This document shows positions 39,795 to 42,700 of a stretch of 64,000 bases of DNA, in pieces. The stretch lies in NCBI RefSeq assembly GCF_048403405.1, contig NZ_CP183129.1, one strand, 5' to 3'. Position numbers: made by a program. The DNA comes from Escherichia coli (GTDB lineage Bacteria; Pseudomonadota; Gammaproteobacteria; Enterobacterales; Enterobacteriaceae). Each line of letters opens with the position of its first letter. Position 1 is the stretch's first letter.

Positions 39795-42700
39795 TAATGA
39801 TGTGCCACATCCGGCATGGTATGCCGGATGTGGCGTATGCTGATAAGACGCGCCAGCGTCGCATCAGGCAACCGGCTTGGGCGTTAGATGTCGGATGCGG
39901 CGTGACCGCCTTATCCGACCTACGGGGTGGAGCACTTCACGGCAGTTTAGCGGACTACCGCGTTGTCAATTTTCTCTTCCGCCTTCCAGATGCGGTACTT
40001 CACATCCACATTGTCTGGCGTATACACCACGATCGGCAGCTTGCTGTTATAACGCAGCATTCCGGCATCGCCCAGATACGCGGTGACAAATTTCTTCTCT
40101 TTCTTGCCATCCGGGCAGGCCATCATCGTCGAAACCGGGGAACTGACTTTATCAAAGACATAATAATCATAGCCCCAGCCTTCCAGCGTTTTGCTTTCCA
40201 GCTTCCCGCCGAGACGATGCAAATTGCAATCGACTTCCAGCGTCTGACCGATTAACAGTTCTACTTTCAGGGTAGATTCATCTTCTTGCGGGGTTAACTG
40301 AATCACCTGACGCTTCATGCCTTTTTCAGCTTGCGGATAAGGCGCGATTTTTTCCAGTGGCTGGACGCTCTCTGCCGCCCAGGCGGAGGTGGTGGCGAAA
40401 GCGGCAAACAATACTGCAGGTAGAATGGTCTTCATTTTTGCTTTCCTTCTTCATTTATAGGTTTTCACCGATGATGTCGCTGAAGGTTAACATATTCATC
40501 AGATTTATTAATTTGCTTTATGAATAACTTAAAGAACATTCAGATAATTTTACCTGCTCTTTTAGTGTTAAATTCTGATGAGAGAGCAAACCAACAGAAA
40601 TATTTCTGGTGAATTAATCGCTATATAAATATGTTTATAACCATTTGAAATGTGAGCAAAAGCCCGTTTTTGCCACGCTTCCCGCCACTCTTTTGATCCT
40701 GCTACAGGTTTTACCCCGATCGGGGTATGCATCTTTGACACATCCTTTAATATCTTAGCGGCTATAAAAATGGCTTATTAATTATGCGGTTTATTTGGTC
40801 GCTCTCAATTTTCAGAGCGCGTTAATGATGGAAGGTCAATGTGAAGATTGATGCATCCCGTCGGGGCATACTCACTGGTCGCTGGCGCAAAGCCAGTAAC
40901 GGTATCCGTCCGCCCTGGTCCGGTGATGAATCTCATTTTCTGACCCATTGCACCCGCTGCGACGCCTGTATTAATGCTTGTGAAAACAACATTCTGCAAC
41001 GCGGCGCGGGTGGCTATCCGAGTGTTAATTTCAAAAATAACGAGTGCAGCTTCTGTTACGCCTGCGCGCAGGCTTGCCCCGAATCGCTATTTTCTCCGCG
41101 CCACACCAGGGCCTGGGATTTGCTGTTCACCATCGGGGAGGCGTGCCTGGCGTATCAAACAGTTGAATGCCGCCGCTGTCAGGATAGCTGTGAGCCAATG
41201 GCAATTATCTTTCGCCCGACGCTCTCCGGGATCTACCAGCCGCAACTTAATAGCCAACTTTGCAACGGATGTGGAGCATGTGCAGCCAGCTGTCCGGTAT
41301 CAGCCATAACTGCGGAGTATCTCCATGCACACTAACTGGCAAGTTTGCAGCCTGGTCGTGCAGGCCAAAAGCGAACGAATTTCAGACATCAGCACCCAAC
41401 TGAACGCCTTTCCCGGCTGTGAAGTTGCTGTCAGCGACGCGCCGAGCGGTCAGTTGATTGTGGTGGTGGAAGCAGAAGACAGCGAAACGCTGATTCAAAC
41501 CATTGAGTCAGTACGCAACGTAGAGGGCGTGCTGGCGGTGTCGCTGGTTTATCACCAGCAGGAAGAGCAAGGTGAGGAAACACCATGAAACTCAGTCGTC
41601 GTAGCTTTATGAAAGCTAACGCCGTTGCGGCCGCTGCGGCGGCTGCCGGTCTCAGCGTGCCGGGCGTTGCCCGCGCCGTTGTTGGTCAGCAGGAAGCCAT
41701 TAAATGGGATAAAGCGCCGTGCCGTTTCTGCGGTACTGGTTGCGGCGTTCTGGTCGGAACGCAGCAGGGGCGTGTGGTGGCCTGTCAGGGCGACCCGGAC
41801 GCACCGGTTAACCGTGGTCTGAACTGCATTAAGGGCTATTTCCTGCCCAAAATCATGTACGGTAAAGACCGTTTGACGCAGCCGCTTCTGCGTATGAAAA
41901 ACGGTAAATATGACAAAGAAGGCGAATTTACCCCAATCACCTGGGATCAAGCCTTCGATGTGATGGAAGAGAAATTCAAAACCGCCCTGAAAGAAAAAGG
42001 GCCGGAATCGATCGGTATGTTCGGTTCTGGTCAGTGGACTATCTGGGAAGGTTATGCCGCGTCCAAGCTGTTTAAAGCGGGATTCCGTTCGAACAACATC
42101 GACCCGAACGCGCGTCACTGTATGGCGTCGGCGGTAGTTGGCTTTATGCGTACCTTTGGTATGGATGAGCCGATGGGCTGCTATGACGACATCGAGCAGG
42201 CTGATGCGTTTGTGCTGTGGGGCGCGAACATGGCGGAAATGCACCCGATCCTCTGGTCGCGCATCACTAACCGTCGTCTCTCTAACCAGAACGTCACCGT
42301 GGCGGTGCTTTCTACCTACCAGCATCGTAGCTTCGAGCTGGCGGATAATGGCATCATCTTTACGCCGCAATCAGACCTGGTGATCCTGAACTACATCGCC
42401 AACTATATCATTCAAAACAATGCGATAAATCAGGACTTCTTTAGCAAACACGTTAACCTGCGCAAAGGGGCGACGGACATCGGCTACGGTTTACGTCCGA
42501 CCCATCCGCTGGAAAAAGCAGCGAAGAATCCAGGTTCTGACGCCTCCGAACCGATGAGCTTTGAAGATTACAAAGCCTTCGTTGCTGAGTATACGCTGGA
42601 AAAAACTGCCGAAATGACCGGCGTGCCGAAAGACCAGTTAGAACAACTGGCGCAGCTGTATGCCGATCCGAACAAGAAAGTCATCTCCTACTGGACGATG

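What the first reader, a model, noticed from the sequence alone, without database searches (positions are those of the whole stretch)
39800..39925. REP/BIME clusters mark junctions in the window
REP-type palindromes (GCCGGATG...CGCATCCGGC family) occur at yfaL/ubiG (4700-4729), rcsC/rcsB (28002-28080), mqo/eco (39800-39925, the largest with 3-4 units) and downstream of yejK (60041-60075). They are typical enterobacterial extragenic repeats, which are reported to act as DNA gyrase and IHF binding sites and as mRNA stabilisers. They also explain several spurious small ORFs in the six-frame track.
Basis: partly seen in the sequence, partly recalled or inferred. Interest (0 to 1): 0.2.

Follow-up and report, generated by a model that had tools for sequence, protein, structure and literature searches.

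The report
Ordinary E. coli REP/BIME-2 repeats
The flagged sequences are the well-known short palindromic REP repeats of E. coli, sitting between the ends of convergent genes; they are real and correctly identified, and their copy number varies between strains in a way already described.

Summary
Confirmed and ordinary. The window (E. coli, K-12 minute-50 region in reverse orientation) holds exactly six full REPs at the four stated sites. These are 4699-4733 (Y), 27998-28032 (Y) with 28045-28080 (Z2), 39835-39869 (Z2) with 39889-39923 (Y), and 60041-60075 (Y). A perfect hairpin made of two REP heads lies at 39800-39838. A REP core pattern matches 6 times against 0.1 expected. A covariance-model scan finds no further copy. 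Rfam's naRNA4 model (a Y-linker-Z2 unit) hits both pairs above threshold.

All four sites lie between convergent genes. The two pairs are BIME-2 units. None has a Z1 REP, an IHF consensus or a terminator U-tract.

Copy number varies among strains:
- mqo/eco: the window has one 113-bp unit. K-12 has 5.9 (12 REPs), E. coli C 14 REPs and E. albertii 6.5 units.
- rcsC/rcsB: the window has 2 REPs, most strains 4.
- yfaL/ubiG: the window has 1 REP, most strains 2.
- yejK/rplY: invariant.

The K-12 eco-mqo array is a published in vivo gyrase cleavage site. One strain carries IS621 inserted in a REP tail there. Hairpins lie within 15 nt of the stop codons of mqo, rcsC, rcsB and ubiG. Already known; low interest.

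The parts
4699..4733 (+). Single Y-type REP between yfaL (stop 4675-4677) and ubiG (stop 4738-4740, minus strand). It is the most diverged copy, and its tail is TAAC instead of CTAC.
   Evidence: 51.1 bits. 26/35 identical to the Y consensus, with a compensated inner stem. RNA hairpin -22.6 kcal/mol, z -6.8.
27998..28032 (-). Y-type REP, inverted. Its GTAG tetranucleotide (27998-28001) contains the rcsC stop codon TAG (27999-28001).
   Evidence: 53.6 bits. 2 mismatches to the Y consensus. 33/35 identical.
28033..28044 (.). Short head-to-head linker of the rcsC/rcsB BIME-2 unit. No IHF consensus.
   Evidence: Covered by the Rfam naRNA4 match 28001-28077 (73.4 bits, threshold 59.5).
28045..28080 (+). 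Z2-type REP with an exact CTAC tail. It ends 6 nt before the rcsB stop (28087-28089, minus strand).
   Evidence: 51.2 bits. 3 mismatches to the Z2 consensus. Hairpin -21.4 kcal/mol, z -6.6.
39800..39838 (.). Composite hairpin made of two inverted REP heads (GCCACATCCGGCAT / ATGCCGGATGTGGC, 3-nt loop). It starts 2-6 nt after the mqo stop (39795-39797). It is locus-specific rather than a dispersed repeat.
   Evidence: I1, 14 nt, 100% complementary. (-29.2 kcal/mol, z -6.1). Single copy in 5414 of 5426 E. coli genomes. Absent from E. albertii.
39835..39869 (-). Z2-type REP, inverted. Its tail is degenerate (GTATGC instead of GTAGGCC).
   Evidence: 36.3 bits. 35/37 identical to the Z2 consensus with a one-base deletion in the tail.
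39870..39888 (.). Head-to-head linker of the mqo/eco BIME-2 unit. No IHF consensus.
   Evidence: Aligned as the linker, with a 7-nt insertion, in the Rfam naRNA4 match 39838-39920 minus strand (60.4 bits, threshold 59.5).
39889..39923 (+). Y-type REP with an exact CTAC tail and a compensated GTC...GAC foot.
   Evidence: 55.7 bits. 31/35 identical. Hairpin -19.1 kcal/mol, z -5.6.
39924..39946 (.). Tail-side flank that completes the 113-bp repeat unit (39835-39947) up to the eco stop (39947-39949, minus strand). In other strains the unit is tandemly repeated from here.
   Evidence: Comparison with the K-12 array of 5.9 x 113 bp and the E. albertii array of 6.5 x 113 bp.
60041..60075 (+). Single Y-type REP, 19 nt after the yejK stop (60020-60022), with tail CTGC. 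The terminator-like hairpin that I read as the rplY terminator follows at 60118-60140.
   Evidence: 57.4 bits. 31/35 identical. Intergenic length invariant in 39 of 39 sampled genomes.

Best explanation
These are members of the E. coli REP (repetitive extragenic palindrome) family, of types Y and Z2. At rcsC/rcsB and mqo/eco they are arranged as single BIME-2 units: a Y and a Z2 REP in inverse orientation with a short linker. At yfaL/ubiG and yejK/rplY they occur as lone Y REPs.

They are non-coding, non-autonomous repeats that sit in the shared 3' regions of convergent genes.

Shown here:
- their sequence, palindromic structure and position;
- that the family is dispersed in many copies;
- that the mqo/eco and rcsC/rcsB clusters expand and contract between strains in steps of one 113-114-bp unit;
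- that a REP tail in the mqo/eco array has served as an IS621 insertion site.

Inferred from published work on the family:
1. When transcribed as the 3' ends of the flanking mRNAs, the hairpins (-14 to -29 kcal/mol) block 3'-to-5' exonucleases and so stabilise the upstream message. They lack U-tracts, so they are not intrinsic terminators.
2. The copies whose stem starts within 15 nt of a stop codon (mqo 2-6 nt, rcsC 0, rcsB 10, ubiG 8) could hinder terminating ribosomes and lower the yield of those proteins.
3. In DNA, Y REPs of BIME-2 are preferred gyrase binding and cleavage sites. This is documented for the 12-REP K-12 allele of this very locus. It is expected to be much weaker for the one-unit allele in the window.
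4. Copies with an intact GTAG/CTAC (three of six) remain potential substrates of the REP-associated transposase TnpA-REP. The three with variant tails are probably inert relics.

Unit-number change most likely comes from unequal recombination or replication slippage between tandem units.
For: Identity:
- Pattern match of 6 against 0.10 expected.
- Consensus identities of 74-95%.
- A covariance-model scan finds only these six.
- Compensatory pairs and 94% pairing.
- Rfam RF02564, a model of a Y-l-Z2 unit from REP325, scores above its gathering threshold at both pairs (PMC4550694).

Family behaviour:
- The exact 22-mer occurs at 92 or more loci of one E. albertii genome, and also in Citrobacter and Pseudocitrobacter.
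- REP-bearing queries hit a median of 4-17 places per E. coli genome.

BIME-2 assignment:
- Y and Z2 in inverse orientation with a short linker, no Z1, no IHF consensus.
- The definitions are in PMC3333891.

Position:
- All four sites are convergent junctions: 4 of the window's 7 convergent junctions and none of about 44 others. The hypergeometric P is about 1.4e-4 by my calculation.

Copy-number variation:
- K-12 has 5.9 x 113 bp and 12 REPs.
- E. coli C has 14 REPs and ABW_A19 has 6.
- Sampled intergenic lengths at mqo/eco are 149 bp in 40 of 59 genomes and 375-837 bp in 19 of 59.
- rcsC/rcsB is 85 bp in 6 of 39 and 198-199 bp, with 4 REPs, in 33 of 39.
- yfaL/ubiG is 60 bp in 4 of 39 and 126-140 bp, with 2 REPs, in 35 of 39.
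- yejK/rplY is invariant.
- E. albertii has 6.5 x 113 bp at the same junction.

Structure:
- Hairpin energies have z-scores of -2.7 to -6.8.
- No terminator-like or promoter-like site lies in 39600-40100.

Gyrase:
- The eco>-<mqo BIME-2 of W3110 has 11/7/2/5 cleavage sites, and 6 cuts in Espeli & Boccard 1997 (PMC6379681 suppl. DS3).
- Y REPs are cleaved more often than Z2 REPs.

IS target:
- IS621 lies at GTAG|GCCTGAT of a Z2 REP in strain Z1323HEC0393. This is the natural target ATCAGGCCTAC (PMC11208160).

Stop-codon rule:
- Quoted from PMC12306157.
Against: No function was measured for these copies.
- No RNA 3'-end, half-life, ribosome or gyrase data exist for a one-unit allele.
- In the K-12 Topo-seq table the short BIME-2 intervals (33-81 bp) near the eco-mqo entry, which I take from approximate coordinate offsets (not checked by alignment) to be the other three sites, have zero cleavage sites. 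The gyrase role may therefore not apply to the small clusters in the window.
- Three of six copies lack an exact CTAC/GTAG, which TnpA-REP needs for binding.
- The covariance model was built from the six copies themselves, so its scores for them are circular. Only the absence of further hits is informative.
- The strain frequencies come from spread samples of 39-59 genomes, not from full counts.
Confidence: 0.93

Rival explanations
1. The hairpins are Rho-independent (intrinsic) bidirectional terminators for the convergent gene pairs.
For: They are stable GC-rich stem-loops placed just after the stop codons of convergent genes.
Against: No hairpin is followed by a T-run on either strand. The terminator scan of 39600-40100 finds 0 sites. 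At yejK/rplY a separate terminator-like hairpin with a T-run on the rplY strand lies at 60118-60140, beside the REP. The same sequences recur at dozens of unrelated loci. The literature describes BIME-associated attenuation as a distinct effect (references listed in PMC12306157).
Confidence: 0.05
2. The two REP pairs are genes for a nucleoid-associated non-coding RNA like naRNA4. This RNA, together with HU, bridges cruciform DNA and condenses the nucleoid.
For: The Rfam naRNA4 model matches 28001-28077 (73.4 bits) and 39838-39920 (60.4 bits), against a threshold of 59.5. About 80% of annotated REP elements are reported to be transcribed, and the activity needs two hairpins such as Y and Z2 (PMC4550694).
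Against: The Rfam model is in effect a model of any Y-linker-Z2 unit, so a hit shows family membership and not function. The second hit is 0.9 bit above threshold and needs a 7-nt linker insertion. The published effect was tied to REP325, at a different locus (yjdM/yjdN). No promoter-like site lies in 39600-40100.
Confidence: 0.1
3. They are IHF-binding BIME-1 (RIP/RIB) elements that bend DNA between convergent genes.
For: The family as a whole includes IHF-binding members (PMC3333891).
Against: There is no Z1 REP in the window. The linkers are 12 and 19 nt, not the long L motif. No WATCAANNNNTTR occurs in any of the four intergenic regions on either strand.
Confidence: 0.02
4. The clusters encode small proteins, from the short ORFs seen in six-frame translation.
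For: Sixteen ORFs of at least 20 aa overlap the four intergenic regions. Some begin at the ATG or GTG inside the REP head.
Against: The ORFs arise mechanically from a repeat whose copy number changes between strains by whole 113-bp units, a length that is not a multiple of three. No such gene is annotated in M217 or K-12. The long ORFs are antisense to real genes.
Confidence: 0.01

Closest known systems
E. coli K-12 eco-mqo BIME-2 array (the same locus in MG1655/W3110)
   Same: Same flanking genes, same mqo-proximal hairpin, same degenerate first Z2 REP, and the same 113-bp unit of Z2-linker-Y-flank.
   Different: K-12 has 5.9 units, 12 REPs and a 714-bp intergenic region. The window has one unit, 2 REPs and 149 bp. 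Gyrase cleavage (11 sites with ciprofloxacin; 6 cuts in 1997) was measured only for the long allele.
REP325 / naRNA4 (Rfam RF02564), yjdM-yjdN locus
   Same: A Y and a Z2 palindrome joined by a short linker. Both window pairs score above the family threshold.
   Different: Different locus. REP325 has six 77-bp units with a constant linker. The mqo/eco linker is 7 nt longer. HU binding and nucleoid condensation were not tested here.
BIME-1 / RIP / RIB elements (Y + Z1 with an IHF-binding L linker)
   Same: They also contain a Y REP and also lie in extragenic positions.
   Different: No Z1, no L linker and no IHF consensus here. BIME-1 occurs as single copies, whereas the two pairs here belong to loci that amplify in tandem.
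Natural IS621 (bridge-RNA recombinase) target sites in REPs
   Same: The target ATCAGGCCTAC is the tail of a Z2 REP. One E. coli strain has IS621 inserted exactly there in the mqo/eco array.
   Different: In the window the only Z2 at mqo/eco has a degenerate tail (ATCAGCATAC). The best site in the window is ATCTGGCCTAC at 28070-28080, with one mismatch. No IS is present in the window.

Membership tests
REP (repetitive extragenic palindrome), E. coli Y/Z2 types | 30-40 nt imperfect palindrome similar to the Y, Z1 or Z2 consensus | tested here: met
   Identities are 26/35, 33/35, 31/35 and 31/35 (Y), and 33/37 and 35/37 (Z2). The core pattern matches 6 times against 0.10 expected.
REP (repetitive extragenic palindrome), E. 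coli Y/Z2 types | Stem kept by compensatory changes, with a conserved internal mismatch | tested here: met
   94.3% of cells are paired, 3 pairs change on both sides, and slid controls give 24-47% pairing. Every fold shows the internal mismatch.
REP (repetitive extragenic palindrome), E. coli Y/Z2 types | Conserved GTAG/CTAC tetranucleotide at the foot | tested here: inconclusive
   It is exact in 3 of 6 copies (27998-28001, 28077-28080, 39920-39923). Variants are TAAC at 4730-4733, ATAC (plus-strand GTAT at 39835-39838) and CTGC at 60072-60075.
REP (repetitive extragenic palindrome), E. coli Y/Z2 types | Extragenic position, typically 3' of genes | tested here: met
   All copies lie between the stop codons of convergent genes. 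One copy overlaps the rcsC stop codon by 3 nt.
REP (repetitive extragenic palindrome), E. coli Y/Z2 types | High copy number, dispersed over the genome | tested here: met
There are multiple places per E. coli genome.
BIME-2 | [quoted passage not shown] | tested here: met
   The pairs are 27998-28080 and 39835-39923. Linkers are 12 and 19 nt. No IHF consensus is present.
BIME-2 | Occurs as tandem copies whose number varies between loci and strains | tested here: met
   The window has one unit at each locus. The same loci hold 2 units (rcsC/rcsB, L005) and 3-7 units (mqo/eco) in other strains.
BIME-2 | Gyrase binding and cleavage at Y REPs | not testable with these tools
   This is published for the K-12 allele of eco-mqo only.
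BIME-1 (RIP/RIB) | Z1 REP plus Y REP, with a long L linker carrying an IHF site | tested here: not met
   No Z1 within 3 mismatches. No IHF consensus.
naRNA4 (Rfam RF02564) | Score at or above the family's gathering threshold | tested here: met
   73.4 and 60.4 bits, against a threshold of 59.5.
naRNA4 (Rfam RF02564) | Expressed RNA that binds HU and condenses DNA | not testable with these tools
   This is described only for REP325.
Intrinsic terminator | GC-rich hairpin followed by a run of U | tested here: not met
   0 sites in 39600-40100. No T-run follows any of the six REPs.

The most novel reading that the evidence does not exclude
The number of 113-bp BIME-2 units at mqo/eco could act as a heritable, strain-level dial. 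It ranges from one in this window and about two thirds of E. coli genomes to 6-7 in K-12, E. coli C and E. albertii. Long alleles would be strong, transcription-independent gyrase sites, and one-unit alleles would not be. Local supercoiling, and the 3'-end stability of the convergent mqo and eco messages, would then differ between lineages. The E. coli-specific hairpin 2-6 nt after the mqo stop would add a fixed brake on Mqo translation termination.
Probability: 0.12. Interest if true: 0.35.

Novelty: already known. Interest (0 to 1): 0.1.

Why it matters
It matters little beyond correct annotation.
- The result keeps six-frame ORFs in these intergenic regions from being called as genes.
- It flags four genes (mqo, rcsC, rcsB, ubiG) whose stop codons sit within 15 nt of a REP hairpin.
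- It shows that intergenic lengths at three of the four junctions are polymorphic by whole REP units. This is useful for strain typing and a hazard for short-read assembly.
- REP and BIME biology, including copy-number variation between strains, gyrase cleavage at the K-12 eco-mqo array, and IS621 targeting of REP tails, is already published.

Tried and rejected
- My first consensus pattern had the wrong loop spacing and found nothing. It was replaced by gapped and fuzzy patterns.
- A head-only pattern (GCCNGATGYGNNG, 1 mismatch) is too loose: 26 hits against 12 expected.
- The RefSeq K-12 record as held lists no repeat_region features, so curated REP numbers could not be used.
- The paper by Liang, Rudd and Deutscher on REPs near stop codons could not be fetched by DOI or by a guessed PMC id. 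I rely on its description in PMC12306157.
- One hit, in an 'Oscillospiraceae' MAG, proved to be a mis-binned E. coli contig.
- Considered and rejected on direct tests: intrinsic terminators, IHF/BIME-1 elements, Z1 REPs, promoters and small proteins.
- I considered whether the two substitutions that turn Watson-Crick pairs into G-U pairs in the mqo-sense hairpin, relative to K-12, argue for selection at the RNA level. Two transitions falling this way has about a 25% chance, so I do not use the point.
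Full report
**What is there**

The window is E. coli chromosome. The 401 bases around the finding are 100% identical to strain M217, and the flanking genes are annotated mqo and eco.

Reading the four sites shows REP-type imperfect palindromes at each. With their tails they occupy:
- 4699-4733 (+)
- 27998-28032 (-)
- 28045-28080 (+)
- 39835-39869 (-)
- 39889-39923 (+)
- 60041-60075 (+)

At mqo/eco there is a third stem-loop at 39800-39838. It is a perfect 14-bp palindrome, 18 bp as RNA, built from two REP heads facing each other.

**Is it more than chance**

- The core pattern GATGYG-N10-14-CTTATC matches exactly these six places, against 0.10 expected.
- Against the consensus sequences quoted in Durrant et al. 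(PMC11208160), the copies are 74-94% identical to Y (four copies) and 89-95% identical to Z2 (two copies).
- Two copies match a fixed consensus within three mismatches, with 0.00 expected. No Z1 copy exists.
- A covariance model built from the six copies and scored at every position finds nothing further of note. Its scores for the six are circular, so only the absence of other hits counts.
- An independent model, Rfam RF02564 (naRNA4, a Y-linker-Z2 unit from REP325), scores above its curated threshold at 28001-28077 and at 39838-39920.
- The stems pair in 94% of cells, with three compensated pairs. Slid controls give 24-47%.
- Each hairpin is far more stable than shuffles, at -14 to -29 kcal/mol.

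**Anatomy and class**

Both pairs consist of a Y and a Z2 REP in inverse orientation, head to head, with linkers of 12 and 19 nt. This is the BIME-2 arrangement as defined in Ton-Hoang et al. (PMC3333891).

None of the four intergenic regions holds an IHF consensus. The IHF property belongs to BIME-1 and does not apply here.

No hairpin is followed by a T-run, and the scan of 39600-40100 finds no terminator-like or promoter-like site.

All four sites are convergent junctions. That is 4 of the 7 convergent junctions in the window and none of the roughly 44 other junctions. By my hypergeometric calculation P is about 1.4e-4.

The distance from each stop codon to the foot of the nearest stem is:

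| Gene | Distance (nt) |
|---|---|
| rcsC | 0 |
| mqo | 2-6 |
| ubiG | 8 |
| rcsB | 10 |
| yejK | 19 |
| yfaL | 22 |
| eco | 27 |

For rcsC, the stop codon TAG lies inside the REP's GTAG. REPs closer than 16 nt to a stop are reported to stall terminating ribosomes (Liang et al., as described in PMC12306157).

I queried 5,426 complete E. coli genomes with the two flanking gene ends joined together and read the distance between them in spread samples.

| Junction | Window form | Other forms |
|---|---|---|
| mqo/eco | 139-149 bp in 40 of 59 (one of them a 139-bp variant with the Z2 REP partly deleted) | 375, 601-603, 714-716 and 829-837 bp in 19 of 59, i.e. 3, 5, 6 and 7 units of 113 bp |
| rcsC/rcsB | 85 bp, 2 REPs, in 6 of 39 | 198-199 bp, 4 REPs, in 33 of 39 |
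| yfaL/ubiG | 60 bp, 1 REP, in 4 of 39 | 126-140 bp, 2 REPs, in 35 of 39 |
| yejK/rplY | 138 bp in 39 of 39 | none |

- At mqo/eco the sample agrees with the 3,432 of 5,426 genomes that align contiguously to the window form.
- K-12 MG1655 has a 714-bp intergenic region at mqo/eco, with 5.9 units and 12 REPs. E. coli C has 14 REPs and ABW_A19 has 6.
- The window thus has 6 REPs where K-12 has 19.
- E. albertii carries 6.5 units of the same 113-bp period, 13 REPs, at the same junction. The array is therefore older than E. coli.
- The mqo-proximal hairpin is absent from E. albertii. It is single-copy and nearly universal in E. coli, in 5,414 of 5,426 genomes.
- Variation in the number of tandem BIMEs between strains is already described (PMC3333891).

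**The family elsewhere**

P. faecalis also has a REP next to the 3' end of its eco gene.

**Function**

Nothing was measured for these copies, so the mechanism is inferred from the family. The proposed roles are:
- 3' hairpins that impede exonucleases and stabilise upstream mRNA;
- possible interference with translation termination at mqo, rcsC, rcsB and ubiG;
- gyrase binding at Y REPs.

For gyrase there is direct published evidence at this very locus in K-12. The eco>-<mqo BIME-2 (654 bp) has 11, 7, 2 and 5 cleavage sites under four conditions, and 6 cuts in Espeli and Boccard 1997. The short BIME-2 intervals listed near it in that table, which I take from approximate coordinate offsets (not checked by alignment) to be the other three sites, have none (PMC6379681 suppl. 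DS3; main text). The one-unit allele in the window has a single Y REP and may be a weak site or none.

REP tails are also the natural target of IS621. In strain Z1323HEC0393 an IS621 sits at GTAG|GCCTGAT of a Z2 REP in this array, with the core dinucleotide on both sides. This matches the target ATCAGGCCTAC.

TnpA-REP needs the GTAG tetranucleotide. Three of the six copies have a variant there and are probably inert.

**Rivals**

Intrinsic terminators, IHF-binding BIME-1 elements and small proteins fail direct tests. A naRNA4-like role cannot be excluded, but the Rfam hit only shows that the sequences are Y-Z2 units.

**Verdict**

The element is already known and of low interest.

Noticed in passing
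window 32165-33268 (stop at 32828-32830): ompC carries an in-frame TAG at codon 222, where strain M217 has TGG. This leaves a 221-aa truncated porin. None of the 5,426 complete E. coli genomes has the exact 81-mer around it (the best hits have one mismatch).
   Followed up: partly
window 60570-62329 (minus strand), change at about 61146: radD (yejH) is split into two overlapping ORFs (193 and 402 aa) by the loss of one base in a C5 run, compared with M217. It is either a true frameshift or a homopolymer sequencing error.
   Followed up: partly
L009 3667-4935 (E. coli Z1323HEC0393, mqo-eco intergenic region): An IS621 element (IS110 family, the bridge-RNA recombinase) is inserted in the tail of a Z2 REP of the mqo/eco BIME-2 array, at the published natural target ATCAGGCCTAC. 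Four REPs lie on each side of it.
   Followed up: yes
window 27998-28001: The conserved GTAG of the inverted Y REP supplies the rcsC stop codon (TAG at 27999-28001), so this 'extragenic' repeat overlaps the coding sequence by three bases. The same arrangement is found in the 4-REP allele of a laboratory-derived strain, TUM22767 (L005).
   Followed up: partly
window 1-64000 compared with NZ_AP019189.1: The window is 100% identical to M217 across mqo-eco, but only 98.98% identical over 4742-64000 and 95.1% over yfaL. M217 also has the 127-bp (2-REP) yfaL/ubiG junction. The source is therefore another strain or a mosaic.
   Followed up: partly
L012 (CALXDF010000207.1, labelled as an uncultured Oscillospiraceae MAG): A contig holding an exact REP match is 100% identical to the E. 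coli lldP region, so it is a mis-binned E. coli contig in a Firmicutes MAG.
   Followed up: yes
L008 430-470 (E. coli FDAARGOS_1252): This is a 139-bp allele of the mqo/eco intergenic region in which the Z2 REP is partly deleted. Only the Y REP is detected by the model.
   Followed up: partly
window 31738-31831 (-), 56678-56751 (-), 60467-60492 (-): Rfam finds MicF RNA, a tRNA (annotated tRNA-Pro in M217) and the L25 ribosomal-protein leader upstream of rplY. All are expected for this region.
   Followed up: no
window 17662-17734, 52981-53014 and 56574-56677: Three convergent junctions (yfaP/atoB, ccmH/narP, yejO/tRNA-Pro) carry no REP. The ccmH/narP gap is only 34 bp.
   Followed up: no
window 53982-56573: yejO is an intact 863-aa autotransporter ORF here and in M217. 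From my own recollection, not checked here, it is an IS-disrupted pseudogene in K-12.
   Followed up: no
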